From contig JAYVNY010000057.1 of the NCBI GenBank assembly GCA_043758205.1, positions 1-64,000 of the forward strand: a stretch of 64,000 bases of DNA, read 5' to 3'. The translations under genes were made by a program, and so were the position numbers. The notes beneath the pieces were generated by a model. That model did no database searches. It saw nothing but the letters and a program-made list of their open reading frames with translations, and was not told the DNA's origin. The stretch is from Akkermansia sp. (GTDB lineage: Bacteria; Verrucomicrobiota; Verrucomicrobiia; Limisphaerales; SIBH01). Shown one piece after another: positions 20,069-34,381 of this stretch. The stretch's first letter is position 1. Each line of letters opens with the position of its first letter.

Positions 20069-20371
20069 TCAGTTTTTTGGCAACGTCTGCGGGGACAGAA
20101 AAATCAAGGCGCCGCCACGCAGGCAGCGGGCGGTCACTTTCAAGGTCGGGTAATACACGTTCAGCTCGTGCAACGGCATCTGGGCCTGCTGCGCGCCGCG
20201 AAAGAAGGCGAGCACACGCGCGCCGATTTCCTTCATGTCGTTCTGCGGGAAATTTCCCGGCAGCGTGGACACCACGATGCGCCCGTCGCGGTCGAGGGCG
20301 AATGCGCCCGAAGGGAGCTTGGCCGGAGTGCCGGTGAATTTACGTCGGTTAAAAAATTTCATGCGGCCCAT
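20069..20371 (-). CDS. Roadblock/LC7 (MglB-like) domain protein
   Basis: 100 aa; ..PSGAFALDRDGRIVVSTLPGNFPQNDMKEIGARVLAFF.. fits Roadblock/LC7 fold pattern; 8-nt gap to downstream gene, 13-nt overlap with upstream RR gene. Confidence 0.5.
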   Translation of the reverse strand: MGRMKFFNRRKFTGTPAKLPSGAFALDRDGRIVVSTLPGNFPQNDMKEIGARVLAFFRGAQQAQMPLHELNVYYPTLKVTARCLRGGALIFLSPQTLPKN

Positions 20372-21438: not shown

Positions 21439-21680
21439 AAAAATTCTTTCTCTGCAATAACGTCGGCGGGTCGGGGCCTTCACTTGAGCGTGACGGGAAA
21501 ATCTTTCACGGCGGCGGTGGCGCGGGGTGCATCCGCACTCTTTTGATCGAGGTCGGAGACTTGAAGAAGGCGCTGCCCTAACAGCGTCCGTTCATTCTGA
21601 GGAGCCGTGTTCAGCTCCACCGCGGCGCGCAAACTTCCTGTTCACCGCGCCCGGCGCTGGCACAGTGCCGCACGTTCAGC

Positions 21681-22554: not shown

Positions 22555-23364
22555 TCACTTGCGGCGTGAGAGGTCGGGCATTTTCTTGAAGCGCGCCAAG
22601 GGGTCTTCTTTGGCCGTTGATGTCTGAGTTGCGGACGGCGTGTGAGTGACGGCGCTTGGTGACACGCTCGCCGCAATCTCCGGACTGACCGCCGCGTGCG
22701 CCACTGCGGGCCGCGCTTCAAAGTAAGAACCCTGGCCGAGCAACGTGCCGAAGCTGCTGCCCGCCGGTGCGCTCGCCACGACCGGAGTCACCTTGGCGTG
22801 CGCGGCGGGACTGGCCGGAACCGGCGGTGGCACCATCGCGTGCGTCTCTTGCGGCGCACACCAGCAGAGCCGGACGGTCGGCACCGGTCCCATGTAAATC
22901 GTCAGTTGATGGTACTGCAGATGTTGCAGTCGCACCTTGTCGGACATGTCCTCGGCCTTGAGCAACGCGGTCAGAATGGCGTGAGTCGTCGGGTGGCTGG
23001 CGTTCGCGTCGGCCAGCGAGCGCAGGGTGGAGAAGGAAACATCCGCCACCTTCTCCAGGTGAACGATCAGGCGCTGCGGCACGGCCAGTTCCATTTCCAC
23101 GTTCTCCAAATCGTAGCCTGCCTCGCGAAATGTCCCGGCGCGAGCGTCAATCTCGTGCAACGCGGCCAGCAGCCGTTCCTCGTCGTCCGCGACCAGACCG
23201 TGCGCGGCGTCCTGCACCGTGCGGCGCATCTGGTGCATCTGCCCGGCGGTGGCCAGCACGGCTTCGCGGAGTTCGGCGGCTCGCGCTGGTGCGCTCTCGA
23301 TGACGCTGGCGATCTGCGCCGCCTTCTGCCGCGCGTCCTGCACTTTGGTGATGAATTTTTTCAT
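22555..23364 (-). CDS. Hypothetical protein (helical N-terminal half, Pro/Ala/Thr-rich C-terminal half)
   Basis: 269 aa MKKFITKVQDARQKAAQIASVIESAPARAAELREAV....; no motif recognised. Confidence 0.5.
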   Translation of the reverse strand: MKKFITKVQDARQKAAQIASVIESAPARAAELREAVLATAGQMHQMRRTVQDAAHGLVADDEERLLAALHEIDARAGTFREAGYDLENVEMELAVPQRLIVHLEKVADVSFSTLRSLADANASHPTTHAILTALLKAEDMSDKVRLQHLQYHQLTIYMGPVPTVRLCWCAPQETHAMVPPPVPASPAAHAKVTPVVASAPAGSSFGTLLGQGSYFEARPAVAHAAVSPEIAASVSPSAVTHTPSATQTSTAKEDPLARFKKMPDLSRRK

Positions 23365-23380
23365 AGGCTTTCAGGGGTTG

Positions 23381-23415
23381 ACCACGAATGGACACGAATA
23401 AACACGAATGAAAGG
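23381..23415. repeat. Left terminal inverted repeat of 1.6-kb low-GC cassette; contains three CACGAAT direct repeats at ~10-bp spacing
   Basis: accacgaatggacacgaataaacacgaatgaaagg; the first 19 nt (accacgaatggacacgaat) are the exact reverse complement of 24960-24978. Confidence 0.75.
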
Positions 23416-23473
23416 AGCGCCAAACCTCGGAGCACCGGACAGCCTTGTCCGGTGAACGTGCGTGGCGAAGTAA

Positions 23474-23866
23474 GTGACGTTTCTCGCGAGTCGCACGAAC
23501 GACCTAAGCTCAACAACCCGGTGCGCGGGACGCAACGATTGCAATCACGACGCTCTGGTGCTGTTGGGTAATTACCATCGGACGATTCACACCGTTCAAC
23601 GCCCTCAAAACAAGGCGTTTCTCTTGCGAAAGCCGCTTCCGGTCGATCTGGCGTCGTTTGGGGAGCGCTTTCGGGCGGCCCGCATAGCCGGGGGCTACAC
23701 ACAGGCTGAGATGGCGCAGAAATTCGGCGTTTCATTCTCGACGGTGAAGTTCTGGGAACAGGGGCGGACGCAGCCTGTGCCGACCACGCGCTTCCAAGTC
23801 GAAGCCTTCTTGAAAGGACTGCACAGTCGGCTCCGCGAAACTCAATCCAGCAGTCGCGCTCGGTAA
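23474..23866 (+). CDS. XRE-family helix-turn-helix transcriptional regulator (true start probably internal, e.g. TTG ~23622)
   Basis: C-terminal ..FGERFRAARIAGGYTQAEMAQKFGVSFSTVKFWEQGRTQP.. = HTH_XRE; N-terminal 50 aa of the ORF look non-protein-like. Confidence 0.5.
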   Translation: MTFLASRTNDLSSTTRCAGRNDCNHDALVLLGNYHRTIHTVQRPQNKAFLLRKPLPVDLASFGERFRAARIAGGYTQAEMAQKFGVSFSTVKFWEQGRTQPVPTTRFQVEAFLKGLHSRLRETQSSSRAR

Positions 23867-24149
23867 AACTGCATGGGGCCGGACAGATTTGTCTCCGTGA
23901 ATGCCGCCTGTCCCGCGATATTGGTGAGGATGCGGAACGGCACTCAGTTGTTCGGTGGCTGTTTCGTCTCGATAAGATACCGCGCCCCGGTTTGAGGAGG
24001 GCAAGGCGTTGGGGGGTGTTGTTGGACGTAGGCGAGCTTTGCTTCGCTTGAGAAGCGTTCGTAGCTGAGAAGCTATTCCATGCGCCAAATCATTTTTCGT
24101 TGGTGCCACGCGTGCGTTGGTTGGCTTGGATCGTTCAATTGGTTGTGCG

Positions 24150-24731
24150 TCAGGCGGGAACATCGAGTCCGTCAACGGGTTCATCGCGGAGTTCGAGTTT
24201 TTGGACGACCAAGTTCCTCCACTTGCCGCCAATCACTCGTTGTGCCAGAGCTTCGCTAACCACCAGATCCCCAAACTGCGATTCAAATGCGGTTGTGTTC
24301 CCAACGTCACGATTCAGGATGTATCGCTTCCCAATCGTTGAATACCAGATTCGCTGACACTCCGGACAGACGCGGAAAGTTGAACGCTCGTTGCCACGAA
24401 TCAGAATACGTTCTTTCTTCATCAGCGTTACAAATCCTGGAGCTTCCTTTCTATCGGGACCGTAAACTTTTCCCAAAAGCAGGAGATCTTGCGGCCCTTC
24501 AGGAAACAATTCTTGGAGGAAGGAGAGCATCGCAATATGCATGCTGACTCCGTGGACAAAGTTTAGAACCGATTGTTCAGGCCTTGTTTGAAGCACGACA
24601 TCAATCGCCTGACCGGTCACACGTGCCGAACAGCACTCTTTGCAGAGACTTGTTCGTTGAGCTTCCGCAAACCACGCTTTATCGGGTGTTTCCGGGTTAG
24701 AGCTTTTTGAAGTCAGTTCGTAGAAACTCAT
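24150..24731 (-). CDS. Cys-rich hypothetical protein (CxxCC ... CPxC zinc-ribbon-like) in low-GC cassette
   Basis: 193 aa; ..SLCKECCSARV.. and ..FRVCPECQRIWY..; local GC markedly below flanks. Confidence 0.5.
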   Translation of the reverse strand: MSFYELTSKSSNPETPDKAWFAEAQRTSLCKECCSARVTGQAIDVVLQTRPEQSVLNFVHGVSMHIAMLSFLQELFPEGPQDLLLLGKVYGPDRKEAPGFVTLMKKERILIRGNERSTFRVCPECQRIWYSTIGKRYILNRDVGNTTAFESQFGDLVVSEALAQRVIGGKWRNLVVQKLELRDEPVDGLDVPA

Positions 24732-24732
24732 A

Positions 24733-24894
24733 TCAAGGACGATGGGTGAATTTTCCTTCGATGATCATTTGCCATGCTGCTTTGGTCATCTGTGCGACTC
24801 CGCCATGCTCTGCAATCGCGGTCAGAGCGATGCGAACCTGCTCATCGCCGCTGAGTCCGGCGTCGGTGCCTTTGACTGGCTGGAGGGTGGTCAT
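24733..24894 (-). CDS. Small 53-aa ORF immediately upstream of (and 1 nt from) the Cys-rich gene
   Basis: MTTLQPVKGTDAGLSGDEQVRIALTAIAEHGGVAQMTKAAWQMIIEGKFTHRP; stop TGA and downstream ATG arranged as TGATATG; below ORF-track size cut-off. Confidence 0.35.
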   Translation of the reverse strand: MTTLQPVKGTDAGLSGDEQVRIALTAIAEHGGVAQMTKAAWQMIIEGKFTHRP

Positions 24895-24957
24895 GTATGG
24901 ATTGGAGGGACGCGGAGAATGCCTAACAGCGGACCAGACAGTCCGCTGCTCCCTCCT

Positions 24958-24987
24958 CCATTCGTGTCCATTCGTGGTTTCATTTCC
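24958..24987. repeat. Right terminal inverted repeat of low-GC cassette (overlaps stop codon of giant AAA+ gene)
   Basis: ccattcgtgtccattcgtggtttcatttcc; 24960-24978 = reverse complement of 23381-23399. Confidence 0.75.
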
Positions 24988-27900
24988 CCGCCTCCGGTTT
25001 CTGCTCCGTCGAGGCGAGAACTTCGTGGAATTTTTCCAGGAACGCGCGCTCGTTGGTCAACATCTCCTGCGTGAGTTGGATTTCTACCACGCCCTGTTGC
25101 GTGCGGGTCTGGAGCAAGTCCTGCGAGGACTTCAAATGATCGCGCTGCTGCGCCGCGAGATCCTTCAACGTCGCCAGCGTGCTGTGCAGCATTTCCATCT
25201 CGTGCATCAGGCTGCGCATCTGCGAGGGGTCACCGCCGCCGCTTGGTGTGTGAGCAACTTTCTCCTCAATCGAACTTCGCAGCGCATCGAAGCTCTTTCC
25301 GAGCGGCGTGACATCAATCACCACCGGCGCAGGCGTCTGCTGCAACTGTTTCTCCAGCGCGTTCTGGATGCCTTCGAGTCCCTGCTGGAAAGCCGAAAGC
25401 TGCGTCACCACCTGGCCCATCGGGTTCGACTGATCGCCACCGCGCGAGAGCTGATTGCGTTTGAAGGTGCGTTTGATTTCCTCCCAGCGCGTCTTCTCCT
25501 CCGGCGTCAGGAGCGCGAGCATTTCGCGCAGCTTGAGCAGATTCGCCTCCGCGCCCGTCGTGAGTGTCTGCGCCTCGTTCTGGTAGTGATCGAGAATCAG
25601 CGCCTGCACTTCCGCGTCGTTCATGATCGGCACGACCTTTTCCGTGAGGCGGCTCATGTTGCGATAAGAGCCTTGCAGGCGGAACGGCGGTTCGGTGCGG
25701 AACTCGTCGGCCTGGCCGGCGGAGTAAATGTATTCCTGATTCACGCGCAGCAGCACGTCCCGAATTTTCACGAGCTTCTTCAGCACGGCGAGAAGCTCCT
25801 CCACTTCCTGCTGCGAGTAGCTGCCCTCGAACGTCTCCTGATCGCGCGAGCCGCCCGCCGCCAGCCGGATGAAACCGCGCACGTCCTTCTGGCTTTTGTT
25901 CGCGAGCGGCGCGAGCACGGCGTTCGAGGTGACGGCGTTTTCGAGGTAGCTCGCCTTGAACCACTCCGCGCTGCCGCTGGCCATGTCGCCGAGGTTGTAG
26001 GTGTCGGCGCGGTTCGCAAGCATGTCGGGGATTTTGAACTTCTGCCCGCTCTCGGTGTAAGGATTGCCGGCCATCACCACCACGACCTTGCGTCCGCGCA
26101 AATCATACGTCCGCGACTGGCCGCGCCATTGGCCCTCGATCTTGCGCTGGCCGTCGCAGAGCGAAATGAACTTCTGCAAAAACTCCGGGTTGCAATGTTG
26201 GATGTCATCCACGCAGAGCATGATGTTGTCGCCCATCTCCAGCGCGAGATTCAGCTTCTGCACTTCCTCGCGCGCGGCGGCGTTCGGCGCTTCCTGCGGG
26301 TCGAGCGACGTGACGGCGTGGCCGAGGGCCGGCCCGTTGATCTTGATGAAGATGATGCCGAGGCGCACCGCCACGTATTCGAGCAGCGTGGTCTTGCCGT
26401 AACCGGGCGGCGAAATCAGCAGCAACAGGCCCATCAGGTCCGTGCGCTTCTTGTCGCCCGCCGCGCCGATTTGCTTGGCGAGATTGTCGCCCACGAGCGG
26501 GAGGTAAAGCTGATCGACAAGCTGGTTGCGCACGAACGAACCAAGCACGCGCGGTTTGAATTCATGCAGACGGAGGCGCTTGCGTTCCTTTTCCAGCAAC
26601 TGCTGCTTCAACTCGTGAAACTGGTTGAAACGCGGCACCACTTCCTTCTCGAAGGGCAACAGGCGTTTGCGGAAATCCAGGTAATCAAACTGGTAAGTGC
26701 TCTCGCGGATGAGAGCGTGCGAGCCTTTCATCCCGGCGAGTGTTTCCGAAGTCGAAGCGGGCACGACGTGGCGCTTCAAGTCATCACCGCAGAAGAGAAT
26801 CGCGGTGACTTCCTCCAGATATTGCAACTCACCATTGCGCCCAAGCAGGAAGCCGCGCACCCAGTCGCGGATTAAATCAAACTGGCTCTCGGGATGCGCC
26901 GCGAGCGGAGCCAGCGATTCATTGAACTCGTCCTCGCCCGACTTCACCACGAGATGCTGATGGAACGCGGTGGCGAGATTATCCCCCTCCTTGCTCACGA
27001 CGAACGAGTCGCCGCTGACCAGTTCGTGGAAAAGATATTCGCCCGCCTCGTTCGCCAGTTCGCGCGGGAAGAGTTGCGTCTGCTCCACGAAACCGGCGAT
27101 GAGTTTTTGCAGCGCGACGATGTAGGTCTGTTGCGCCGTGTCGCCGGGGAACAGCTTGTTGCGCGCGGAGAAGCCTTTCAGCTTGGCCGTCCAGAGCGTG
27201 CGCGCTTCCGCCGGGCAGAAGCGCACCCAGAAGACCGCCGCCAAAGCGCGCGCGCTGGGTTGATAGCGCGCCAGATGCAGCGCGGCGTGCGTCCGCAACA
27301 GCGCGCGGAGAATGCGCGCCCCATCCACGTCGTGAAGGCCCTTCGTGTAGCCCTCGTGATAGCGCGTCGCGACGAACTCCAGCACCAAGGCCAGCAACGC
27401 GTCGTCCTTCAGTGCGAGCGCGTCATCAATCGTCTTGCCCTGACCGCTCTCCAACAACTGGAGAATGCTGTGCGCGAGATATTCGCCGCGATAGACCTGC
27501 GCATTTTCAGAAACCGCTTCCTGATCCCAGACCGCGCGCGTGGCGAGAAATGCTTCATCCGTGATGGCCTCGAAATACTTCGTGCTGGTGAGATGAATGT
27601 TCGGCACGCCGTCGCGCATCACGACCGTGAGGTCGAGCGGTTGGGTGTTGACGTTAAACTTGTGGCGGCCGAGCTGGATGACGCTCTGGCCGTCCACGAA
27701 CAATTCCTGGCGGTCCTTGAGCTGCCGCACCGCGTCCTGATGCACGCTCTTGAGGCGGCCTTGCAGATCGTCGGCCTTCACCGAATCTTCGAGCGCGAGC
27801 AGTTGCCCGATGGTGTCGCGCACTTTCGCGATCATCAGATCGGACGCCACGTAAGTGTTGATCTCCTCGACCGTCTTGAAGGCTGCGAGGCGGTTCTGAA

Positions 27901-30280
27901 TCGTCTTTAACACGCGCTCTGCCGCCGTCATCAGCGCGCCGGCCTTGCGATTGCGCTGCTCGATTAACGCGACCTTGCGCTGCTCGAACGCCTCGTAAAT
28001 CGAAGTGCGCTTCTCGGAGAGCGGCACGGTGTATTCCTCGAAGTCCGCGAACGCGCCCTCCAGTTCCTCGATCTGAACGCTGATGCGATTGACGTACTCC
28101 TCGCACTTGGCCGGCGAATCGCAGAGGTCGAGGTAGCTCGAGGCCGACTGGCTCAGGAGCTTCATCTGCGCGTTGAACTGCGCCGCGCCTTCCGTCGCGA
28201 CCAGGCTTTGCAGGCGCTTCTTCACCGCCGCCTTCACCTGGTTCAACGTGGAGTAAATGCCCGTGATGCCATCAATGATGCGCGTGGTCTCGGTCGCGTC
28301 CTCGATTTGGAGACCATTGACGATCTCGATCAACATCTCGAGTTCCACGCCGGTGTCGGCGGCGGCCTTCTCAATCTTTTTGCCCTCGGTGGACTTGGAA
28401 ACTTTCTCGACCGAAGCCAACTGCTCGTCCGCCTGCTTCCGGTAGAGATCGAGCGCGGTCGGTTCGAGCAGGAACTTCACGCACCCCTTCGAGAGCGTGT
28501 CCGACTCGGCGGTGACGTGCTTCTCCAGTTCATCAAGCTGCGCGACGTTGACGTAGCGCACTTCCTTGACCGTGATGATCTCGCCGCGCAACTGGCGCAG
28601 CGCCGCGAGATTGCGCACAAAATCATCCAGCGTCTTGAAGCTCGCGCGGCGCACCGTGCGGAAGCGTTCTTCGCAACGCTGCTTCAAATCCCCGACACGC
28701 TGCACGGCCTCGCGCTGGAGACGGCGCACCTTGTCAAATTCGTCCACCGCCTTGTCCGCGACTTCGCGCAACTGCCGGAGCGCGGCGTCAATCTGCAACC
28801 CATCGGGCGTGGTCAACCACGGGAAGGTGTCGAGGATCGCGCCGCTGCGCTTGACCAGATCGGCGTAGAGTTCGGCGTAAGGATTTTCTTTGCCGAGCAG
28901 CGTCAGCACTTCGTTGGCTTCGGCCAGCGCACGCACGACTTCCTTGTTGCCAACTTGATAAAGAAACGTGTCGCGCTGCCCCGCCGGTTCGTGGCCGGGC
29001 TGATAGAACGGCGTCTGCCGCAACTGAATCGAGTGATGTTTCTGCGGTTCGTCATCTGCCCGGAAGAGCAACAGGTGGCCGTCAGGGAACAGCGAGAAGC
29101 CATTGCAAGTGATGCGCTCGTCCACCTTCTGTTGAATCAGCCGGTAGGGCATCAGCACGTATTGCCCACTCTCGTAGTTGTAGAAAACAAAGAGCGTGTC
29201 CTCGCCGTTGGGCGAATTCACCACGCGCTCGATGGTCATCCCCAGTTCGCGGCTCTCGAACTGTTTCAACTCGCCCGTCGCGAGATAATAGCCGTCGGGG
29301 AAAATCAGTCCGTGGTCTTCCGGCAGCAGCACGCACGATTGCCCGAGCGAGTCCACGCGCTGCGCGGTCTGCAACTTCTCGTTGTAGATGAAGTAGCGGC
29401 TGGCGGTTTCCTTGTAGGGCCGGATGCGGAGCAGAATCAGATGACCGATCAGCGCGTAGGCGATTTCCGCGTCATCAACCTTCTGAAACTTGTCATCCAC
29501 CGGCTCGGCGTGAATGCCTTCGCCGGTCTTGGTGTTGTCCTCGATCTTGATCGTCAGGTCGCCGCCCACGCACTCGACGAACACGCGGTCCTCAATCGAG
29601 ACGTGCGGATGATTGCCATAGCGGAACGACTCGCGCGACGGCGTGAGCCAGCGGAATTCATACTGCGGCGGAAAACCCACGCGGCGGAAATCCGTCTCCG
29701 CACGTCCATCGAGATAGCGCAGTTGCCCGCCTTGAAACGCCCACTTGACCACCGCGATGTCGTTCGCGCCCGCGCCGATCTGGAAGACCATGTAGAGGTT
29801 GCCCTCGATCAGCGAAAACTTGCTGAACACCGCGCGGTCATAGACCTGATAGAGCCGTTTGAAGTCGGTGAGGAACTGCTTCTGCTGGAGGACGTCCAGC
29901 GTGCTTTCCTTGAACGCGCCGTCCGCCTCGTCGCGGTGATAAATGGCGAAGACGTCTTCGAGTTTGATTTCCTGCTTCAGTCCAAACTGCACGTTGAAGC
30001 CGAAAAGGAAACGCCCGCGCCCAAGCTGGACCATGTCGCGCGGCATGCAGTTGTGGACGGTGGTGACGCGATCCGATTGCAGCAACTTGAACTCGACGTT
30101 GCCGAACACTTCCTGTCGTCGCGCGTTGAGTTGGTTCACGCGCTCGCGCAACACCGTGGCCTGCGCCTGCAACCGCTGGCGGATGATCTCGTAGGTCGCG
30201 CTGCCGAGCGTGGACGCGGCGGTGGGTGTCGCGGCCGCTTCCGGCGCGGGCGTCGCAGGAGTTGTGGGCGCGTCAGCCAT
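24980..30280 (-). CDS. Giant (~1767 aa from Met at 30278-30280; ORF extends to 30370) uncharacterised protein: N-terminal beta-rich region, long coiled-coil/helical regions, MoxR/AAA_5-like ATPase core near C-terminus
   Basis: Walker A ..LLLISPPGYGKTTLLEYVAVRL.., Walker B ..IMLCVDDIQHCN.., sensor/arginine region ..VVVVMAGNPYTESGQKFKIPDMLANRADTYNL.. (MoxR/AAA_5/McrB-like); N-terminal ..SPNGEDTLFVFYNYESGQYVLMPYRL.. beta repeats. Upstream portion of the ORF (30281-30370) overlaps an imperfect 24-bp inverted repeat so the MADAPTTPA start is preferred. Confidence 0.85.
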   Translation of the reverse strand: MADAPTTPATPAPEAAATPTAASTLGSATYEIIRQRLQAQATVLRERVNQLNARRQEVFGNVEFKLLQSDRVTTVHNCMPRDMVQLGRGRFLFGFNVQFGLKQEIKLEDVFAIYHRDEADGAFKESTLDVLQQKQFLTDFKRLYQVYDRAVFSKFSLIEGNLYMVFQIGAGANDIAVVKWAFQGGQLRYLDGRAETDFRRVGFPPQYEFRWLTPSRESFRYGNHPHVSIEDRVFVECVGGDLTIKIEDNTKTGEGIHAEPVDDKFQKVDDAEIAYALIGHLILLRIRPYKETASRYFIYNEKLQTAQRVDSLGQSCVLLPEDHGLIFPDGYYLATGELKQFESRELGMTIERVVNSPNGEDTLFVFYNYESGQYVLMPYRLIQQKVDERITCNGFSLFPDGHLLLFRADDEPQKHHSIQLRQTPFYQPGHEPAGQRDTFLYQVGNKEVVRALAEANEVLTLLGKENPYAELYADLVKRSGAILDTFPWLTTPDGLQIDAALRQLREVADKAVDEFDKVRRLQREAVQRVGDLKQRCEERFRTVRRASFKTLDDFVRNLAALRQLRGEIITVKEVRYVNVAQLDELEKHVTAESDTLSKGCVKFLLEPTALDLYRKQADEQLASVEKVSKSTEGKKIEKAAADTGVELEMLIEIVNGLQIEDATETTRIIDGITGIYSTLNQVKAAVKKRLQSLVATEGAAQFNAQMKLLSQSASSYLDLCDSPAKCEEYVNRISVQIEELEGAFADFEEYTVPLSEKRTSIYEAFEQRKVALIEQRNRKAGALMTAAERVLKTIQNRLAAFKTVEEINTYVASDLMIAKVRDTIGQLLALEDSVKADDLQGRLKSVHQDAVRQLKDRQELFVDGQSVIQLGRHKFNVNTQPLDLTVVMRDGVPNIHLTSTKYFEAITDEAFLATRAVWDQEAVSENAQVYRGEYLAHSILQLLESGQGKTIDDALALKDDALLALVLEFVATRYHEGYTKGLHDVDGARILRALLRTHAALHLARYQPSARALAAVFWVRFCPAEARTLWTAKLKGFSARNKLFPGDTAQQTYIVALQKLIAGFVEQTQLFPRELANEAGEYLFHELVSGDSFVVSKEGDNLATAFHQHLVVKSGEDEFNESLAPLAAHPESQFDLIRDWVRGFLLGRNGELQYLEEVTAILFCGDDLKRHVVPASTSETLAGMKGSHALIRESTYQFDYLDFRKRLLPFEKEVVPRFNQFHELKQQLLEKERKRLRLHEFKPRVLGSFVRNQLVDQLYLPLVGDNLAKQIGAAGDKKRTDLMGLLLLISPPGYGKTTLLEYVAVRLGIIFIKINGPALGHAVTSLDPQEAPNAAAREEVQKLNLALEMGDNIMLCVDDIQHCNPEFLQKFISLCDGQRKIEGQWRGQSRTYDLRGRKVVVVMAGNPYTESGQKFKIPDMLANRADTYNLGDMASGSAEWFKASYLENAVTSNAVLAPLANKSQKDVRGFIRLAAGGSRDQETFEGSYSQQEVEELLAVLKKLVKIRDVLLRVNQEYIYSAGQADEFRTEPPFRLQGSYRNMSRLTEKVVPIMNDAEVQALILDHYQNEAQTLTTGAEANLLKLREMLALLTPEEKTRWEEIKRTFKRNQLSRGGDQSNPMGQVVTQLSAFQQGLEGIQNALEKQLQQTPAPVVIDVTPLGKSFDALRSSIEEKVAHTPSGGGDPSQMRSLMHEMEMLHSTLATLKDLAAQQRDHLKSSQDLLQTRTQQGVVEIQLTQEMLTNERAFLEKFHEVLASTEQKPEAGK

Positions 30281-30575
30281 GCGGATGAAAACGTGGTCGT
30301 TCAGCCCGGAGGGCTGACAGAAAGTAGCCGGGGGTTGAGCGACAGCGATACCCCCGGTCGCCCCCAACAAACGGACGCGACCCTGAAGGGGTCGCAGAAA
30401 TCATGAAATCATGGCGCGCTTCTTGCACCCCTCCGGGGTGCATTCGATTTCCGTGCGCGGATCCGGGGGTGTCGCTGGCGCTCAACCCCCGGCTACTGTC
30501 TTGCAGCCCTTCAGGCTGCCGCGCAGCACACGTTTGTGCGCTTCTCTGGATTCGCGGCTTCATCGCGTTTCGCAA
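30281..30575 (-). promoter_or_regulatory. Hairpin-dense spacer between flotillin and giant AAA+ genes
   Basis: gcgaccc-tgaa-ggggtcgc (30378-30396), cacccc-tcc-ggggtg (~30426-30440), gcagcc-cttcag-ggctgc (~30505-30521), and 24-bp imperfect IR cagaaagtagccgggggttgagcg / cgctcaacccccggctactgtctg (~30317-30340 / ~30478-30501). Confidence 0.4.
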
Positions 30576-32744
30576 CTAGCGCTTCGCCTCAGTCGCAGAA
30601 ATCACCGTTGCCGCCGGCACGTTCGCCAGCCCGCGTTCGCGCACGGCATTCAACGCTGCCTTCATCATGCCTTGCACGGAACTGTCGTCCGTGGACGCGA
30701 TCAGTTTTCCGAGCAGCGCGGCCACCGTCAGGTTCTTCACGTCCTCGGATGAGATGCCGAAGTCGGCAATCCACTTGCGGAACTGGCTTTTGAAAAACTC
30801 CGAATCGCCGTTGAAGAACGTGTCCTTGATGTCCGTGAGCGTGGTGCTGTTCTGCACCATGCGGTCCACGGCTTTGCCCGTGCCGACGGCGCGCACGACC
30901 TTTTCGAAGAAATCGTTCTCGCCGCCCACGATATCAATGTGCGCGTGCTTGAGCGCCTCGCCGACGATGGTGGAGTTGGCTTGCGCAATGTCCCGCTGGA
31001 CATGAATGGCTGCGAGTTCCACATCGCGTTCCTTCGACAACCGAAGCTTGAACTCTTCGTGCTCCTTGCCGGCCTCGTGGAAAAGTTTCATGGCCTCGGC
31101 CTTCTGATGAATGGCTTTCGCTTCCGCCGCGCCGCGCGCTTCAATGCCGGTGGCGGCGGCGAGTTCCTTTTCCTTGGTGCCTTCGGCTTCAGCCTCGGCT
31201 TGCGTCTGCGTGTTGGTCGCGTTCACCGCGCCCTTGGCTTTGATGACCTCGGCTTCGGCCAGGCCCAATTCCTTCGTCGCCGACGCGTCCGCCTTGCGAG
31301 CAGTGGCTTTGGCGATGATGACTTTCGCTTCCGCGAGTCCGCGCGCGGATTCCATGGCGGCCAGTCCCTCGGCGTCTTGCTCGGAAGCATGGCGGCGCTT
31401 GTCGGAGGCCTTCGCTTCCGCGTCGGCCATCGTCTGCATCCGCTCGGCATCGCGCAACGCCGCCTCACGGTTCGCCTCGGCGGCGGTGATGATTTTGATC
31501 TTCTCCGCCTCGGCAATGTTCTTCTCAGATTCTTTCAACGCTTCCGAGGCCACCACGCGCTGAACCTGATCCTTCTTCGCGTTCATCTCGGCTTCGATCA
31601 AAGTCACTTCGCTCACGCGCGCCGCGGTCATGCGCGCTTCGATGTTGTTCTTCTCCTCCTGCTGTTGCACCACGGCCTTTTCTTCGGCGACGACCGTGGC
31701 GCGCTTGCGCTGCACCTCGACGCCCATTTCGGCCAGCTTGGTTTCCTTGTCCATTTCGGCGAGTGAAACGGTGCGCTCGCGACGCACGCGCGCTTCCTCG
31801 CCCTCCTGAATGGACTCCTGTTCGAGCCGCTGCTTTTCCTTCCGCACGGTAAACTCCCGCTCCTGCACCGCGCGATTCATGTCCTCGGTGCGCAGGCGGA
31901 TGGACTCCTCCGCTTCGAGCCGCTTGCCTTCCACTTCCTGCCGACGGCCTTCGATGACCTTGCGCGCCTCGGCCTCCTCGTTCGCCTTCACCTCGGTGAT
32001 GGCGCGCGTCTGCTTGGCGGTGTCCTCCTCGTTCCGGCGCTTCTGTTCGCGCTTGGCGATGTCGGCGTCGGCGTTTTCTTTTTCCACCAGCACTTGGGCG
32101 CGTTGTGAAAACTCGTTCGACAAAACGCGTTCCCGCTGGGTGATCTCGGTGATTTTCTTGATGCCTTCCGCGTCGAGTACGTTGCTCGGGTCGTGTTGGT
32201 CGAGCGGCGTCTGTTCGAGGTAATCAATCGCCACGTCCTGAAGAATGAAGCCGTCGAGGTCTTTGCCGATGGTCACCTGAATCTGTTCCCGGAACTTCGT
32301 GCGCTCCGTGAACAACTCGTGAAATTCCATCTGCTTGCCCGCCGTCTTCAGCGCCTCGGAAAACTTCGACTCGAACAGTTCGCGCAACTGGTTCATGTCC
32401 GACACGCGCTCCGAGCCGAGCATCTGCGCGACCCTGCGCACGCTCTCCGCCGTGGCATCCACGCGGATGTAAAACGCCACCGAGATGTCCGCGCGGATGT
32501 TGTCCTTGCACACGAGTCCGTCTTTTCCTTTGCGCGCGATTTCGAGTTTCTTCACCGAAATGTCCACCAACTCCATCGTCTGGAAAATCGGAATGCGCAG
32601 CATCCAGTCGAACGACACCCGGATGCCGCCGAGGCCGACGATGATGCCGGCCTTGCCCGGTTGAATCTTGCGGATGCACAGGACAAATACTGCCGCGAGA
32701 AAAAGCAGCGAGAGAACAACAACCGCGATGAGGACGTAAGGCAT
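30576..32744 (-). CDS. Flotillin-like SPFH/band-7 protein with long Glu/Ala/Lys-rich coiled coil and extended C-terminal domain
   Basis: 722 aa; N-terminal TM MPYVLIAVVVLSLLFLAAVFVLC; SPFH core ..VDISVKKLEIARKGKDGLVCKDNIRADISVAFYIRV..; EA-rich ..AEAEAEGTKEKELAAATGIEARGAAEAKAIHQKAEAMK.. typical of flotillins (FloT/YqiK). Confidence 0.85.
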   Translation of the reverse strand: MPYVLIAVVVLSLLFLAAVFVLCIRKIQPGKAGIIVGLGGIRVSFDWMLRIPIFQTMELVDISVKKLEIARKGKDGLVCKDNIRADISVAFYIRVDATAESVRRVAQMLGSERVSDMNQLRELFESKFSEALKTAGKQMEFHELFTERTKFREQIQVTIGKDLDGFILQDVAIDYLEQTPLDQHDPSNVLDAEGIKKITEITQRERVLSNEFSQRAQVLVEKENADADIAKREQKRRNEEDTAKQTRAITEVKANEEAEARKVIEGRRQEVEGKRLEAEESIRLRTEDMNRAVQEREFTVRKEKQRLEQESIQEGEEARVRRERTVSLAEMDKETKLAEMGVEVQRKRATVVAEEKAVVQQQEEKNNIEARMTAARVSEVTLIEAEMNAKKDQVQRVVASEALKESEKNIAEAEKIKIITAAEANREAALRDAERMQTMADAEAKASDKRRHASEQDAEGLAAMESARGLAEAKVIIAKATARKADASATKELGLAEAEVIKAKGAVNATNTQTQAEAEAEGTKEKELAAATGIEARGAAEAKAIHQKAEAMKLFHEAGKEHEEFKLRLSKERDVELAAIHVQRDIAQANSTIVGEALKHAHIDIVGGENDFFEKVVRAVGTGKAVDRMVQNSTTLTDIKDTFFNGDSEFFKSQFRKWIADFGISSEDVKNLTVAALLGKLIASTDDSSVQGMMKAALNAVRERGLANVPAATVISATEAKR

Positions 32745-32950: not shown

Positions 32951-34381
32951 CTACAAAAACTTTGTCACCCCCGGCACGGCCACTTCGGATTTGGGCGGCG
33001 CGGCGTCCCAGTCGTAACGCTCGGGCGAGAGATTTTCTTTGGAATTCATGGCCTGCTCCCAGGTGATTTTCTGACCGGTGTAAGTCGCCATGCGGCCTTG
33101 GATCGCCATCAAGGTGCTGCGCGCCATGTAGTCGCCGTTGTTGATGAGTTTGCCGCTGCGGATGCTGGCGAAGAGTTCATCGTGCTCGGTCTGATAATGA
33201 TCTTTCTTGTCGCCCTCGTAACGCCACTTGCTGTCGCTGTGGATTTCCATGGAGCGCGTGCCGAACGTCGCCGCGCCTTTGCTGCCGGTGGCGTGGACGG
33301 AGATGTCGTTCACTCCGCCGCTCTGCTGGCGGCAGTAGGCGTGGAGCTTCACGCCGCTGGCGTATTCGTAAATGACCGAGTGGTGATCGTAGATGTTGCC
33401 GAACTCCGGCGCGGTGCGGACCTGACGCCCGCCGAGGCCCATCGCGCTCACGGGATATTCGTCGCGCATGATCCACGCGCACACGTCGAGCATGTGGACG
33501 TGCTGCTCGACGTTAAAGTCGCCCGAGAGCCAGGTGAAATAATACCAGTTGTGCATGTGCCACTGCATGTCCGTCCAGCCGGGCTGGCGCGGTTTGACCC
33601 AGATGGGGCCGCGAAAATCATTGGCCTGCAACGCCCGCACCTCACCGATTTCGCCGGCGTGAATGCGCCGGACCATTTCGCGATAGCCGAGGTCGTAGCG
33701 CAGCACGAGACCTGAAACCAAGGAGAGATTCTTCCGCTTCGCCTCCGCGCACGACGCGAGCACGGAGCGCACGCCCGGCGCGTCCACGGCCACGGGTTTC
33801 TCGGCGAAGACGTGTTTGCCCGCGTCAATCGCAGCCTTGAGATGCATGGGACGAAAGTGCGGCGGCGTGGCGAGGAGCACGACATCACTGGCGGCGATGA
33901 CTTTCTCGTACGCATCAAAGCCGACGAAGCGCCGGGACTCCGGCACCTCGATTTTTTCCGCGATGTCTTTCTGCTTCTGTAAAAGATCGAGGCTGCTCTC
34001 CAGCCGGTCTTTGAACGCATCGCCCAGTGCGACGAGTTTCACGTTCAGGTCACTGGCCAGCGCCTGCGCCGCCGCGCCGGTGCCGCGGCCGCCACAGCCA
34101 ATCAATCCCACGCGCAAGGTCTCGCCGGGAGAAACCTGCGCGAAGCTGCGACGCGCGATGAACGGCGCGGCCCCGGCCACCACGGCGGAGGATTTCAGAA
34201 ACGAGCGGCGTGATAGTCCCAAAGTAGTGGGACTGGCACCCTCGTCTGCGGAACTGCAAGCGGGGGCGCTTGCAGCACTCACGACAGGCGGGGGCGCCTG
34301 TCCCACTAACTTGGTCGCGCTCACGGCAGCTCCTTCACGTAAATGTTTTTGAACTGCACGAGCGCGGGCGGACTGGACCAC
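32951..34381 (-). CDS. Gfo/Idh/MocA-family NAD(P)-dependent oxidoreductase with twin-arginine signal
   Basis: ..LSRRSFLKSSAVVAGAA.. Tat motif; ..LRVGLIGCGGRGTGAAAQAL.. Rossmann; ..HVFAEKPVA..; start uncertain (overlaps DUF1080 gene by 60 nt if 34381 used). Confidence 0.8.
   Translation of the reverse strand: MVQSARARAVQKHLREGAAVSATKLVGQAPPPVVSAASAPACSSADEGASPTTLGLSRRSFLKSSAVVAGAAPFIARRSFAQVSPGETLRVGLIGCGGRGTGAAAQALASDLNVKLVALGDAFKDRLESSLDLLQKQKDIAEKIEVPESRRFVGFDAYEKVIAASDVVLLATPPHFRPMHLKAAIDAGKHVFAEKPVAVDAPGVRSVLASCAEAKRKNLSLVSGLVLRYDLGYREMVRRIHAGEIGEVRALQANDFRGPIWVKPRQPGWTDMQWHMHNWYYFTWLSGDFNVEQHVHMLDVCAWIMRDEYPVSAMGLGGRQVRTAPEFGNIYDHHSVIYEYASGVKLHAYCRQQSGGVNDISVHATGSKGAATFGTRSMEIHSDSKWRYEGDKKDHYQTEHDELFASIRSGKLINNGDYMARSTLMAIQGRMATYTGQKITWEQAMNSKENLSPERYDWDAAPPKSEVAVPGVTKFL

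What the first reader, a model, noticed from the sequence alone, without database searches (positions are those of the whole stretch)
24980..32744. Flotillin/SPFH protein paired with a ~1800-aa MoxR/AAA_5-like ATPase: candidate undescribed membrane-associated two-gene system
Two large co-directional genes sit back to back. The upstream 722-aa protein has an N-terminal TM helix, an SPFH core, an EA-rich coiled coil and an extra C-terminal domain. The downstream 1767-1796-aa protein has a beta-rich N-terminus, roughly 700 aa of predicted coiled coil/helix, and near the C-terminus a complete AAA+ core of the MoxR/McrB/dynein AAA_5 type (GPPGYGKT; hhhhDD; AGNP..G..F.IPD.L.NRA). Flotillins are normally paired with NfeD, and MoxR ATPases with vWA partners. 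A flotillin scaffold next to a giant coiled-coil MoxR-class ATPase does not correspond to any named operon or defence/stress system I can recall. The size, coiled coils and ATPase suggest a mechanochemical or membrane-remodelling role, or a defence-type role.
Basis: partly seen in the sequence, partly recalled or inferred. Interest (0 to 1): 0.8.

Follow-up and report, generated by a model that had tools for sequence, protein, structure and literature searches.

The report
Flotillin paired with giant AAA+ ATPase
A membrane-scaffold (flotillin-type) gene sits next to a 1,766-residue ATP-driven machine in a pairing conserved across at least five bacterial phyla; a 2024 comparative-genomics survey of membrane-stress genes already noted it, but nobody has tested what it does.

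Summary
Two intact co-directional minus-strand genes lie at 30576-32744 (722 aa) and 24980-30280 (1,766 aa from the ATG).

- **Gene A** is a YqiK-type flotillin (hhalign against E. coli YqiK: probability 100%, E=9e-40). It carries a family-specific C-terminal domain.
- **Gene B** is a Pfam DUF3686/DUF7902 protein that NCBI names "DNA repair ATPase". AlphaFold2 models give a divergent beta-propeller, spectrin-like helical bundles, an alpha domain and an AAA+ core closest to the MoxR class (NorQ, CbbQ).
- **The pairing is conserved.** A gene A homologue lies directly upstream of gene B in 69 of 69 informative loci. The same pairing occurs in Pseudomonas, Streptomyces and Deinococcus plasmids.

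It is not undescribed. Ravi et al. (mSystems 2024) report this flotillin plus "beta-propeller + coiled-coil + AAA+" pairing in PspA/CesT/YqiJ envelope-stress operons, and I recovered those operons in Bacteroidota.

The window holds an abbreviated Verrucomicrobial variant. It has no YqiJ or PspA, and it has a lineage-specific third gene (22555-23364).

The most likely role is ATP-driven remodelling of a flotillin/PspA membrane scaffold. That role is inferred and has not been tested. The pairing is real and interesting, but the novelty claim is only partly right.

The parts
30576..32744 (-). Gene A: 722-aa YqiK-type flotillin (SPFH) protein. It has an N-terminal membrane anchor (aa 3-24, window 32673-32738), an SPFH domain plus coiled coil that align to YqiK (aa 13-411, 31512-32708), an Ala/Glu-rich helical region (aa 412-560, 31065-31511), and a family-specific C-terminal domain (aa 561-722, 30579-31064).
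   Evidence: ORF and translation. hhalign against E. coli YqiK: probability 100%, E=9e-40. Band_7 hits in 2 of 16 family members. Sources name homologues 'flotillin family protein' or 'YqiK'. The C-terminal domain is not YqiK-like. Coordinates.
30281..30575 (-). A-B spacer of 295 nt that folds into a long imperfect hairpin. The hairpin is built on two mutually reverse-complementary 30-nt units, CCGGGGGT-N14-ACCCCCGG, at 30328-30357 and 30463-30492. It is probably a palindromic repeat insertion or an optional attenuator, and it is not an obligatory part of the module.
   Evidence: MFE -173 kcal/mol, z=-10.75. The units are unique in the window. There is a weak terminator-like hairpin at 30396-30376. 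About 20 related loci have spacers of 0-60 nt, and only about 13 of 44 longer spacers are strongly structured.
24980..30280 (-). Gene B: 1766-aa DUF3686-family giant AAA+ ATPase (database name 'DNA repair ATPase'). The ATG is at 30280. An upstream in-frame TTG at 30370 would add 30 aa.
   Evidence: Pfam DUF3686 E=8e-168 and DUF7902 E=1e-21. At least 3969 homologues. The 1766-aa product is the one on record.
28823..30151 (-). Gene B aa 44-486: the DUF3686 domain, a divergent beta-propeller-like fold (about 28 strands at aa 65-422). It is preceded by a disordered Pro/Ala/Thr-rich tip and a long helix (aa 21-59).
27701..28822 (-). Gene B aa 487-860: long antiparallel helical bundles resembling spectrin repeats. 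This region includes Pfam DUF7902 (aa 609-691, window 28208-28456).
26561..27700 (-). Gene B aa 861-1240: a small beta domain (about aa 861-930), an all-alpha domain (about aa 930-1170) and a long connecting helix. No known family was assigned.
   Evidence: Model pLDDT is mostly 85-96 in this stretch. No Pfam hit. The Foldseek top hits cover only the AAA+ part.
25481..26560 (-). Gene B aa 1241-1600: the AAA+ module. Walker A is SPPGYGKT (aa 1290-1297, window 26390-26413). Walker B is MLCVDD (aa 1354-1359, 26204-26221). A beta-hairpin lies between Walker B and sensor 1 (model strands at about aa 1380-1393). Sensor 1 is MAGNP (aa 1403-1407) and the Arg-finger region is LANRAD (aa 1421-1426).
   Evidence: Motif coordinates. 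Fold. Best target-normalised TM scores are to NorQ 0.61/0.59 and CbbQ2 0.49, and the best E-values are to MCM. This is the most conserved part of the protein, with majority-residue fraction 0.85-0.92.
24983..25480 (-). Gene B aa 1601-1766: a C-terminal helical/coiled-coil tail. The last ~130 aa are Verrucomicrobia-specific and absent from most Bacteroidota homologues.
   Evidence: Gap fraction 0.47-0.60 and low conservation for aa 1641-1766. Bacteroidota hits cover 88% of the long Cytophagales homologue L071 used as query. Long helix with pLDDT about 60.
22555..23364 (-). Gene C: a 269-aa conserved third gene of the Verrucomicrobial version. It has a ~175-aa N-terminal domain, a Pro/Ala/Ser/Thr-rich linker and a conserved C-terminal DPLARFKKMP motif. 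Its function is unknown. Here a 1.6-kb insertion separates it from gene B.
   Evidence: A homologue lies immediately downstream of gene B in 44 of 53 Verrucomicrobial loci with enough downstream sequence. No Pfam or NCBIfam hit. It is not PspA-like (hhalign probability 1.7%). It was not found in the Bacteroidota loci.

Best explanation
The locus is the Verrucomicrobial, abbreviated form of a widespread membrane-associated module. The constant core of that module is a YqiK-type flotillin with a special C-terminal domain (gene A) followed by a giant cytoplasmic AAA+ ATPase of the DUF3686 family (gene B).

Shown here:
- The two genes are co-inherited and adjacent across Verrucomicrobiota, Bacteroidota, Pseudomonadota, Actinomycetota and Deinococcota.
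- In other phyla they are embedded in envelope-stress operons: CesT/Tir chaperone, PspA, YqiJ/NfeD-like membrane protein, and sometimes a PLD-family gene.
- The ATPase core is intact and is the most constrained part of the protein.

Inferred:
- Gene A oligomerises into a flotillin-type scaffold on the cytoplasmic face of the inner membrane.
- Gene B assembles through its MoxR-class AAA+ domain into a ring.
- Its beta-propeller and spectrin-like arms dock onto the flotillin scaffold, plausibly through the family-specific C-terminal domain of gene A.
- ATP turnover is then used to assemble, disassemble or remodel that scaffold or its clients, such as PspA/ESCRT-III-type polymers encoded elsewhere, during membrane maintenance or envelope stress. 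This would be analogous to Vps4 acting on ESCRT-III, or to FtsH working inside the HflK/C SPFH cage.
- In Verrucomicrobia, the lineage-specific gene C and the lineage-specific C-terminal tail of gene B probably form an added adaptor pair.
For: Identity:
- Gene A versus YqiK: probability 100%, E=9e-40.
- Gene B: Pfam DUF3686 E=8e-168 and DUF7902 E=1e-21.

Pairing:
- 69 of 69 informative loci have gene A directly upstream on the same strand, and gene A identity falls roughly in step with gene B identity (76%/67%, 46%/55%, 38%/45%).
- The same pair occurs on pQBR103, a Streptomyces plasmid and a Deinococcus plasmid. Their SPFH proteins are 33-37% identical to gene A over more than 620 aa.

Stress context:
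- Tenacibaculum L074 reads HTH+S24 peptidase (divergent), CesT_Tir_1 (E=4e-57), PspA (E=2e-42), YqiJ-like, flotillin, giant.
- pQBR103 reads YjfI, PspA, rhomboid, DUF2491, DUF350, DUF1190, GspS-like, YqiJ-like, SPFH, giant.
- A PLDc_2 gene lies downstream in marine Verrucomicrobiales.
- These are the operons described in PMC11237479, whose authors proposed ATP-dependent membrane remodelling.

ATPase:
- High-confidence AAA+ model, closest to NorQ and CbbQ.
- Core conservation is 0.85-0.92 across two phyla.
- Walker A Lys, sensor-1 Asn and the Arg finger are invariant.

Operon:
- About 20 loci have A-B spacers of 0-60 nt.

From my own knowledge, not tested here: SPFH cages house AAA+ machines (HflK/C-FtsH; prohibitin with the m-AAA protease), and PspA/Vipp1 belong to the ESCRT-III superfamily.
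Against: - No experiment exists for any member, so every mechanistic step beyond co-occurrence and fold is inference.
- The window has no PspA or YqiJ gene in 64 kb, so a PspA link for this organism is only by analogy.
- Walker B is DD rather than DE, and Walker A starts with S rather than G, invariantly. The protein may therefore be a slow, switch-like ATPase rather than a processive remodeller.
- In this window a 295-nt highly structured spacer with a terminator-like hairpin separates A from B, so co-transcription here is not assured.
- MoxR-class ATPases normally act with vWA partners, and none is present.
Confidence: 0.5

Rival explanations
1. MoxR-style assembly chaperone. The giant ATPase does not remodel the flotillin scaffold itself. 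Instead it uses the flotillin microdomain as a platform to mature, insert or extract a specific membrane protein complex or cofactor, as RavA-ViaA, NorQ-NorD and CbbQ-CbbO do for their clients.
For: The AAA+ core is closest in fold to NorQ and CbbQ2, and its sequence motif NP..G....P..L.NRA is MoxR-like. Ravi et al. interpret band-7, CesT/Tir and TPM partners of PspA as chaperone-like assembly factors. The beta-propeller and spectrin-like arms look like client-binding modules.
Against: There is no vWA/MIDAS partner in the protein or its neighbours. No conserved candidate client gene lies in the neighbourhood apart from the flotillin itself, and the only other conserved neighbour is gene C, which is lineage-specific.
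Confidence: 0.2
2. Anti-phage or abortive-infection defence module. The flotillin and ATPase sense phage-induced membrane damage and trigger an effector, such as the PLD-family protein seen in some loci.
For: The module occurs on megaplasmids (pQBR103, Streptomyces and Deinococcus plasmids). An HKD/PLD gene is nearby in some loci. An HTH+S24 (LexA/CI-like) regulator is divergently transcribed in Bacteroidota. PspA is historically phage-induced. Flanking context varies between genomes.
Against: PADLOC gives only a 27-residue P-loop match at E=0.005. No homologue exists in 50,697 phage records. Only 13 of 72,556 plasmid records match, and these are mostly chromids or mis-filed chromosomes. Protein identity tracks taxonomy, as expected for mainly vertical inheritance. 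No nuclease or toxin effector is part of the constant core. The neighbours in this window are ordinary metabolic and regulatory genes.
Confidence: 0.1
3. DNA repair ATPase, as the database name says. The giant protein acts on DNA.
For: Support comes only from names: the Pfam DUF3686 description 'ATPase involved in DNA repair' and the NCBI product name. There are weak RuvB_N and MCM similarities, which are generic AAA+ matches. A LexA-like regulator lies nearby in Bacteroidota.
Against: No DNA-binding, nuclease or helicase-specific domain was detected by Pfam, NCBIfam or fold search. The constant partner is a membrane-anchored flotillin, and the extended partners are envelope-stress proteins. 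No paper in the library mentions DUF3686 or PF12458. The RuvB hits fall far below the curated cutoffs (20 bits against 282).
Confidence: 0.03

Closest known systems
PSP-associated operon of Ravi, Anantharaman, Aravind, Gennaro et al. [quoted passage not shown]
   Same: The flotillin-type protein and the giant beta-propeller/helical/AAA+ protein are the same, in the same order and orientation. I recovered the full published gene order (cHTH+protease, CesT_Tir, PspA, YqiJ, flotillin, giant) in Flavobacteriaceae relatives of gene B, matching the paper's Dokdonia example. A PLD neighbour is present as they describe.
   Different: The window has no CesT/Tir, PspA or YqiJ/YuaF gene. The paper's abbreviated operons keep YqiJ/YuaF and only sometimes include the ATPase. 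The Verrucomicrobial form instead has a lineage-specific gene C downstream and a lineage-specific C-terminal tail on the ATPase. The paper gives no structure, no Pfam assignment and no experiment.
Canonical bacterial flotillin-NfeD operons (E. coli yqiJ-yqiK; B. subtilis yuaF-floT)
   Same: Gene A aligns to YqiK over the membrane anchor, the SPFH domain and the first coiled-coil region (31% identity over 381 columns). Relatives in other phyla keep a YqiJ-like gene upstream.
   Different: Gene A is about 170 aa longer and has a C-terminal domain unrelated to the YqiK tail. It has no NfeD/YqiJ partner here. It is followed by a giant ATPase that the E. coli yqiJK locus lacks.
MoxR-class AAA+ ATPases with vWA partners (RavA-ViaA, NorQ-NorD, CbbQ-CbbO)
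   Same: The AAA+ core fold and motifs match: P-loop, a beta-hairpin before sensor 1, NP..G...P..L.NRA. The best target-normalised structural matches are NorQ and CbbQ2. Pfam AAA_5 scores just above its cutoff.
   Different: It is five to six times larger, with a propeller, spectrin-like bundles and extra domains fused N-terminally. There is no vWA/MIDAS partner. Walker B is DD and Walker A begins with S. The Foldseek E-values (about 1e-5) are no better for MoxR proteins than for MCM, RuvB or spastin, so clade membership is not secure.
SPFH cage plus AAA+ machine (HflK/C-FtsH; prohibitin with the m-AAA protease); from my own knowledge
   Same: An SPFH-family scaffold is functionally coupled to an AAA+ ATPase at the membrane.
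   Different: FtsH is a membrane-anchored classical-clade AAA+ protease enclosed by a periplasmic HflK/C cage. Gene B has no protease domain and no TM segment, and it belongs to a different AAA+ class. Any physical coupling here is untested.
ESCRT-III / Vps4 (with PspA/Vipp1 as bacterial ESCRT-III relatives); from my own knowledge and PMC11237479
   Same: A polymer-forming membrane-remodelling protein (PspA, in the extended operons) is genomically linked to an AAA+ ATPase, which suggests ATP-driven turnover.
   Different: The ATPase is not Vps4-like: it has no MIT domain and is not classical-clade. PspA is absent from this window, and the invariant partner is the flotillin rather than PspA.

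Membership tests
Flotillin / YqiK-type SPFH proteins (gene A) | SPFH (Band_7) domain detectable by profile | tested here: met
   The protein itself has no Pfam hit. The family profile against E. coli YqiK gives probability 100%, E=9e-40 over aa 13-411. 2 of 16 family members pass Pfam Band_7 at E=7e-14.
Flotillin / YqiK-type SPFH proteins (gene A) | N-terminal membrane anchor followed by a long Ala/Glu-rich coiled-coil region | tested here: met
   There is a hydrophobic stretch at aa 3-24. The region aa 230-560 is 20% Ala and 18% Glu. A weak profile hit to the coiled-coil region of the SPFH protein QmcA was found (E=0.0018).
Flotillin / YqiK-type SPFH proteins (gene A) | Canonical flotillin C-terminal tail as in YqiK | tested here: not met
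   Residues 540-722 show no similarity to the YqiK C-terminus (hhalign probability 0.2%). This domain is conserved within the giant-associated subfamily.
Flotillin / YqiK-type SPFH proteins (gene A) | Adjacent NfeD/YqiJ/YuaF-type membrane partner gene | tested here: not met
   A YqiJ-family HMM finds nothing in the 64-kb window, or in the Verrucomicrobial loci other than L079. The partner is present in Bacteroidota, pQBR103 and Deinococcus relatives.
Flotillin / YqiK-type SPFH proteins (gene A) | Formation of large oligomeric membrane assemblies or microdomains | not testable with these tools
   This needs microscopy, BN-PAGE or cryo-EM.
Pfam DUF3686 / DUF7902 'DNA repair ATPase' family (gene B) | Match to PF12458 and PF25472 above the gathering score, with the family's 1.6-1.9-kaa architecture | tested here: met
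   DUF3686 scores 558.9 bits (cutoff 25) and DUF7902 scores 77.4 bits (cutoff 26). Full-length homologues are 1.6-1.93 kaa.
Pfam DUF3686 / DUF7902 'DNA repair ATPase' family (gene B) | A role in DNA repair, as the name implies | not tested
   No DNA-related domain or neighbour was found, and no literature exists. The name appears to be unsupported.
MoxR / AAA_5 class of AAA+ ATPases (gene B core) | AAA+ fold with Walker A, Walker B, sensor 1 and Arg finger | tested here: met
   Model and motifs. The residues are invariant in 69 sequences. Deviations: Walker A is SPPGYGKT and Walker B is hhhhDD.
MoxR / AAA_5 class of AAA+ ATPases (gene B core) | Specific affinity to MoxR/AAA_5 over other AAA+ clades | tested here: inconclusive
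   AAA_5 scores 23.0 bits (cutoff 22), but PF00004 scores 24.9 bits. The best Foldseek TMt values are NorQ 0.61 and CbbQ2 0.49, but the best E-values are to MCM, and spastin and RuvB score similarly. A beta-hairpin before sensor 1 is present in the model. The pre-sensor-II insert was not checked.
MoxR / AAA_5 class of AAA+ ATPases (gene B core) | vWA/MIDAS-domain partner, fused or adjacent | tested here: not met
   No vWA domain was found in gene B or in the window neighbours scanned.
PSP-associated flotillin/AAA+ operon (Ravi et al. 2024) | [quoted passage not shown] | tested here: met
   The same family sits in the published operon layout in Flavobacteriaceae.
PSP-associated flotillin/AAA+ operon (Ravi et al. 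2024) | CesT/Tir-PspA dyad and YqiJ/YuaF in the same operon | tested here: not met
   PspA and YqiJ HMMs and tblastn find nothing in the window. The window is therefore an abbreviated variant.
Known anti-phage defence systems (PADLOC-DB v2) | Significant match of either protein to a defence-system model | tested here: not met
   Gene A has no hit. Gene B has only a 27-residue P-loop match to mad8, E=0.0052.

The most novel reading that the evidence does not exclude
The flotillin plus giant-ATPase pair could be a self-contained bacterial membrane-remodelling machine. In this reading an AAA+ ring carries 'beta-propeller + helical-repeat' arms, an arrangement whose best structural matches include IFT-A, the clathrin terminal domain, Elp1 and Nup84-complex proteins. 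The ring would actively assemble or disassemble flotillin (and PspA/ESCRT-III) lattices to bud, repair or partition membrane. It would be a prokaryotic functional counterpart of Vps4/ESCRT-III or of coat-type machinery. The flotillin, rather than PspA, would be its primary substrate. In Verrucomicrobia a new adaptor, gene C, would be added.
Probability: 0.15. Interest if true: 0.85.

Novelty: new variant of a known kind. Interest (0 to 1): 0.45.

Why it matters
Bacterial flotillins are widespread, but their mechanism is unclear, and no ATP-consuming partner is established for them. A dedicated giant AAA+ partner is conserved next to one flotillin subfamily in at least five phyla. It is repeatedly embedded in PspA (bacterial ESCRT-III) operons. 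It is therefore the obvious candidate for the energy source of flotillin/PspA membrane remodelling.

This analysis adds four points to the published note:
- The flotillin-ATPase pair, not PspA or YqiJ, is the invariant core.
- The associated flotillins carry their own C-terminal domain.
- A confident domain model of the ATPase is now available: a divergent propeller, spectrin-like bundles and a MoxR-like core with unusual S-P-loop and DD Walker B motifs.
- Verrucomicrobia carry a variant with a third conserved gene.

The analysis also indicates that the database name 'DNA repair ATPase' is probably wrong. Tractable hosts exist for experiments: P. fluorescens SBW25 with pQBR103, Streptomyces, Proteus mirabilis and Pontibacter.

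Tried and rejected
- **Direct Pfam, NCBIfam and PDB sequence searches of gene A.** These gave nothing usable. A family profile against the PDB gave only a weak QmcA coiled-coil hit. The SPFH question was settled by profile comparison with E. coli YqiK.
- **Gene C as a divergent PspA.** One homologue gave a weak Pfam PspA hit (E=0.0012), but hhalign of the gene C family against PspA gave probability 1.7%. Rejected.
- **A gene C-like protein downstream of the long-tailed Cytophagales homologue (L071).** That neighbour is unrelated.
- **Defence system.** PADLOC and the phage collection were negative.
- **PspA or YqiJ elsewhere in the window.** tblastn and HMM searches were negative.
- **Rfam on the whole window.** No match for the structured spacer.
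- **Sigma-70 promoter scan.** No sites.
- **Literature searches.** Searches for DUF3686, PF12458, 'flotillin + DNA repair ATPase', 'YqiK+YqiJ+AAA+', 'flotillin+MoxR' and 'bacterial flotillin+AAA+ +operon' found nothing beyond Ravi et al..
- **The upstream GFO/IDH/MocA oxidoreductase (32951-34381) as part of the module.** It is not a conserved neighbour.

Full report
**1. What is in the sequence**

Two long ORFs lie head to tail on the minus strand at exactly the reported coordinates. Gene A is 30576..32744 (722 aa, ATG). Gene B is 24980..30370 (1796 aa from a TTG).

The sequence upstream of gene B shows an ATG at 30280. The 1766-aa product starting there is the one on record in public collections, so I number gene B from that ATG.

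Both ORFs are intact and full length relative to homologues (716-724 aa and about 1.77-1.93 kaa). The window has 57-67% GC and its closest relatives are Verrucomicrobiota MAGs labelled Pedosphaera, Limisphaerales or 'Akkermansia sp.'.

**2. Gene A is a flotillin, but a special one**

The protein itself has no Pfam hit and only a 0.09 E-value to the NCBIfam FloT model. It has no sequence relative in the PDB.

- A 16-member family alignment spanning Verrucomicrobiota and Bacteroidota aligns to E. coli YqiK with probability 100%, E=9e-40 and 31% identity over 381 columns. The aligned region is gene A aa 13-411, covering the membrane anchor, the SPFH domain and the first coiled coil.
- Two of the 16 members pass Pfam Band_7 on their own, best E=7e-14.
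- Sources name homologues 'flotillin family protein', 'flotillin' or 'YqiK'.
- The central region is 20% Ala and 18% Glu.
- The last ~180 residues are strongly conserved inside the family but show no similarity to the YqiK tail (probability 0.2%).

The 'extra C-terminal domain' is therefore real and marks this subfamily.

**3. Gene B is a member of a named but uncharacterised family**

Pfam gives DUF3686 ('ATPase involved in DNA repair', E=8e-168) and DUF7902 (E=1e-21). It also gives weak, roughly equal hits to AAA, AAA_5, AAA_22 and RuvB_N around the P-loop.

The family is large. At least 3969 and 5627 hits were found in two searches. The N-terminal domain matches 718 clusters at 50% identity, with full-length members consistently 1.6-1.93 kaa. 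NCBI calls the family 'DNA repair ATPase' or 'AAA family ATPase', and JGI sometimes calls it 'MoxR-like ATPase'. No paper in the library mentions DUF3686 or PF12458.

**4. Structure of gene B**

Two AlphaFold2 models were built on 69-sequence alignments from two phyla. Residues 1-860 gave pLDDT 86.3 and residues 831-1766 gave pLDDT 83.3. They give this domain order:

| Residues | Feature |
|---|---|
| 1-20 | Disordered Pro/Ala/Thr-rich tip |
| 21-59 | Long helix |
| 65-422 | Beta domain of about 28 strands |
| 440-860 | Long antiparallel helical bundles |
| about 861-930 | Small beta domain |
| about 930-1170 | All-alpha domain |
| (after the alpha domain) | Connecting helix |
| about 1250-1530 | AAA+ alpha/beta domain plus lid |
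| 1530-1640 | Conserved helices |
| 1640-1766 | Low-confidence coiled-coil tail |

I therefore read the N-terminal half as a divergent propeller followed by spectrin-like bundles. This agrees with the published description 'beta-propeller + coiled-coil' but does not rest on it.

The C-terminal model hits only AAA+ proteins. The best E-values are to MCM (1.2e-5). The best target-normalised TM scores are to the MoxR-class NorQ (0.61/0.59) and CbbQ2 (0.49). RuvB, spastin, Lon and ClpX score close behind.

The motifs are as follows:

- Walker A: SPPGYGKT (aa 1290-1297)
- Walker B: MLCVDD (aa 1354-1359)
- A beta-hairpin between Walker B and sensor 1
- Sensor 1: MAGNP
- Arg-finger region: PDMLANRAD

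All are invariant in 69 sequences. The DD Walker B is correct and is invariant.

The AAA+ core is by far the most conserved part, with majority-residue fraction 0.85-0.92 against 0.45-0.75 elsewhere. This argues for a working nucleotide site. No vWA/MIDAS segment exists in the protein or in its neighbours.

**5. The pairing is conserved across phyla**

A pattern scan of one genome per species returned 80 loci encoding gene B relatives. They are mostly Verrucomicrobiota, plus eight Bacteroidota at 43-46% identity.

In all 69 loci with usable upstream sequence, a gene A homologue lies directly upstream on the same strand, with gaps of 15-1776 bp. The 11 loci without one all have less than 2.5 kb of upstream sequence. 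Gene A identity falls roughly in step with gene B identity, as expected for co-inheritance.

tblastn against plasmids found full-length relatives (38-49% identity) in Hymenobacter, Nonomuraea, Deinococcus, Streptomyces, Proteus, Halomonas, Pseudomonas, Vibrio and Photobacterium records. None was found in phages.

The annotated contexts show the same pair:

- pQBR103 has 'SPFH domain-containing protein' followed by 'DNA repair ATPase'.
- A Streptomyces plasmid has 'flotillin family protein' followed by 'DNA repair ATPase'.
- A Deinococcus plasmid has the same layout.

Those SPFH proteins are 33-37% identical to gene A over more than 620 residues. That is closer than E. coli YqiK, which is 31% identical over 452 residues.

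**6. The extended context is envelope stress, and it is already in the literature**

- In Bacteroidota the genes upstream of the flotillin are a divergent HTH+S24-peptidase regulator, CesT_Tir_1 (E=4e-57), PspA/IM30 (E=2e-42) and a YqiJ-like membrane protein.
- On pQBR103 the string is YjfI, PspA, rhomboid, DUF2491, DUF350, DUF1190, a glutathionylspermidine-synthase-like gene, a YqiJ-like gene, SPFH and the giant.
- Marine Verrucomicrobiales have a PLDc_2 gene downstream.

Ravi et al. (mSystems 2024; preprint 2020; PMC11237479) describe exactly this. [quoted passage not shown] They add that 'related abbreviated operons' are 'more widely distributed'.

Their Table S3 example from Dokdonia (Flavobacteriaceae) has the same gene order that I found in Tenacibaculum and Leeuwenhoekiella. 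The pairing is therefore documented, though only computationally. No other paper was found.

**7. What is particular to this window**

HMMs and tblastn for PspA and YqiJ find nothing in the 64-kb window. They also find nothing in the Verrucomicrobial loci, except for a YqiJ-like gene in L079.

Instead, a ~270-aa gene lies immediately downstream of gene B in 44 of 53 Verrucomicrobial loci with room. It has a conserved N-terminal domain, a Pro/Ala/Ser/Thr-rich linker and a conserved DPLARFKKMP C-terminus. In the window this gene C is 22555..23364 on the minus strand.

Gene C has no Pfam or NCBIfam hit and is not PspA-like. The last ~130 residues of gene B are also Verrucomicrobia-specific, so gene C and this tail may belong together. 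That link is an inference.

In the window a 1.6-kb stretch not shared with other loci separates B from C. It carries an XRE-type HTH ORF on the plus strand and a 193-aa CxxC...CxxC ORF.

The A-B spacer (295 nt) folds into a very stable long hairpin (z=-10.75). Similar structured spacers occur in about a dozen loci, but about 20 loci have spacers of 0-60 nt. I therefore regard the hairpin as an optional insertion and not a part of the machine.

**8. How it most likely works**

Shown:
- The flotillin-ATPase pair is the invariant core.
- It is recurrently linked to PspA, CesT, YqiJ and PLD envelope genes.
- The ATPase core is intact and highly constrained.
- Gene B has no TM segment.

Inferred:
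- The flotillin forms a membrane scaffold.
- The ATPase forms a ring through its AAA+ domain and reaches the scaffold through its propeller and spectrin-like arms, perhaps through the subfamily-specific flotillin C-terminal domain.
- ATP turnover drives assembly, disassembly or remodelling of the scaffold or of PspA-type polymers during membrane maintenance or stress.

Known precedents, from my own knowledge, are HflK/C-FtsH and ESCRT-III/Vps4. I put about 0.5 on this explanation.

The rivals are:
- a MoxR-style client chaperone that uses the flotillin as a platform (0.2);
- a defence or abortive-infection module (0.1; PADLOC and phage searches were negative);
- literal DNA repair (0.03; supported only by the name).

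The DD Walker B and S-type P-loop could mean slow, switch-like hydrolysis.

**9. Verdict**

The window holds a new variant of a known but experimentally untouched kind. The variant has no YqiJ or PspA and has gene C in addition. Interest is moderate (0.45). The system is worth experimental work, and the incremental findings here are the invariant core, the flotillin C-terminal domain, the domain model, gene C and the probably wrong database name.

Noticed in passing
window 30281-30575 (minus strand); units at 30328-30357 and 30463-30492: The spacer between gene A and gene B folds into a very stable long hairpin (MFE -173 kcal/mol, z=-10.75). The hairpin is built on two mutually reverse-complementary 30-nt palindromic units, CCGGGGGT-N14-ACCCCCGG, that occur nowhere else in the window. 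There is no Rfam match. About 13 of 44 related loci with spacers of at least 60 nt are also strongly structured, and the L017 spacer shares DNA similarity in both orientations. It could be a REP/MITE-like insertion hotspot or an intra-operon attenuator that sets the A:B ratio.
   Followed up: partly
window 23365-24979: A 1.6-kb stretch between gene B and the conserved gene C is absent from related loci by blastn, and the 24-26 kb stretch overlapping it has the window's lowest GC (0.569). It carries a plus-strand XRE-type HTH ORF (23474-23866; HTH_31 E=2e-8) and a minus-strand 193-aa ORF with CxxC...CxxC motifs (24150-24731) that has no family hit. It looks like a small insertion, possibly a toxin-antitoxin or immunity-type pair.
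   Followed up: partly
window 26390-26413 and 26204-26221 (gene B aa 1290-1297 and 1354-1359): The P-loop begins with Ser (SPPGYGKT) rather than Gly/Ala, and Walker B is hhhhDD rather than hhhhDE. Both are invariant across 69 sequences from two phyla. This hints at unusual, possibly slow, hydrolysis chemistry.
   Followed up: partly
L050:16518-17222 (and L046, L052-L054, L056); L083:22792-22992: A PLD-like (PLDc_2, E=2e-31) gene lies about 1 kb downstream of the giant ATPase in marine Verrucomicrobiales loci, where gene C is on the opposite strand. A phospholipase D family gene also lies about 8 kb downstream on pQBR103. This matches the PLD association noted by Ravi et al. for Proteobacteria.
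   Followed up: partly
L074:4966-5724 (minus) and equivalents in L071, L075-L078: A LexA/CI-like regulator (HTH_3 plus Peptidase_S24) is divergently transcribed from the CesT-PspA-YqiJ-flotillin-giant operon in Bacteroidota. This suggests induction by self-cleavage of a repressor. It may also be the origin of the 'DNA repair' label.
   Followed up: no
L047:8303-9994; L035, L065, L007, L057: In several Verrucomicrobial loci the A-B gap is 1-1.8 kb. In L047 the gap holds a 563-aa ORF with no Pfam hit, so extra genes have been inserted between the two partners in some lineages.
   Followed up: no
window 38777-48658 (+): A second giant ORF (3293 aa) carries Ig_3, I-set, HYR and PA14/GLEYA repeats. 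It is probably a large surface adhesin-like protein and is unrelated to the finding.
   Followed up: partly
window 20359-21483 (-): A response-regulator receiver domain fused to DUF4388 (PatA-type) lies about 1 kb downstream of gene C. It did not appear among the conserved neighbour clusters across loci.
   Followed up: no
H6/H7 (NZ_OL790812.1, NZ_OL790811.1), H2 (NZ_LT559118.1): Several 'plasmid' records holding gene B homologues are 4-12 Mb and are evidently chromosomes filed as plasmids (Proteus mirabilis, Nonomuraea). The plasmid count therefore overstates how mobile the module is. It also shows that Proteus mirabilis, a tractable pathogen, carries the system.
   Followed up: no
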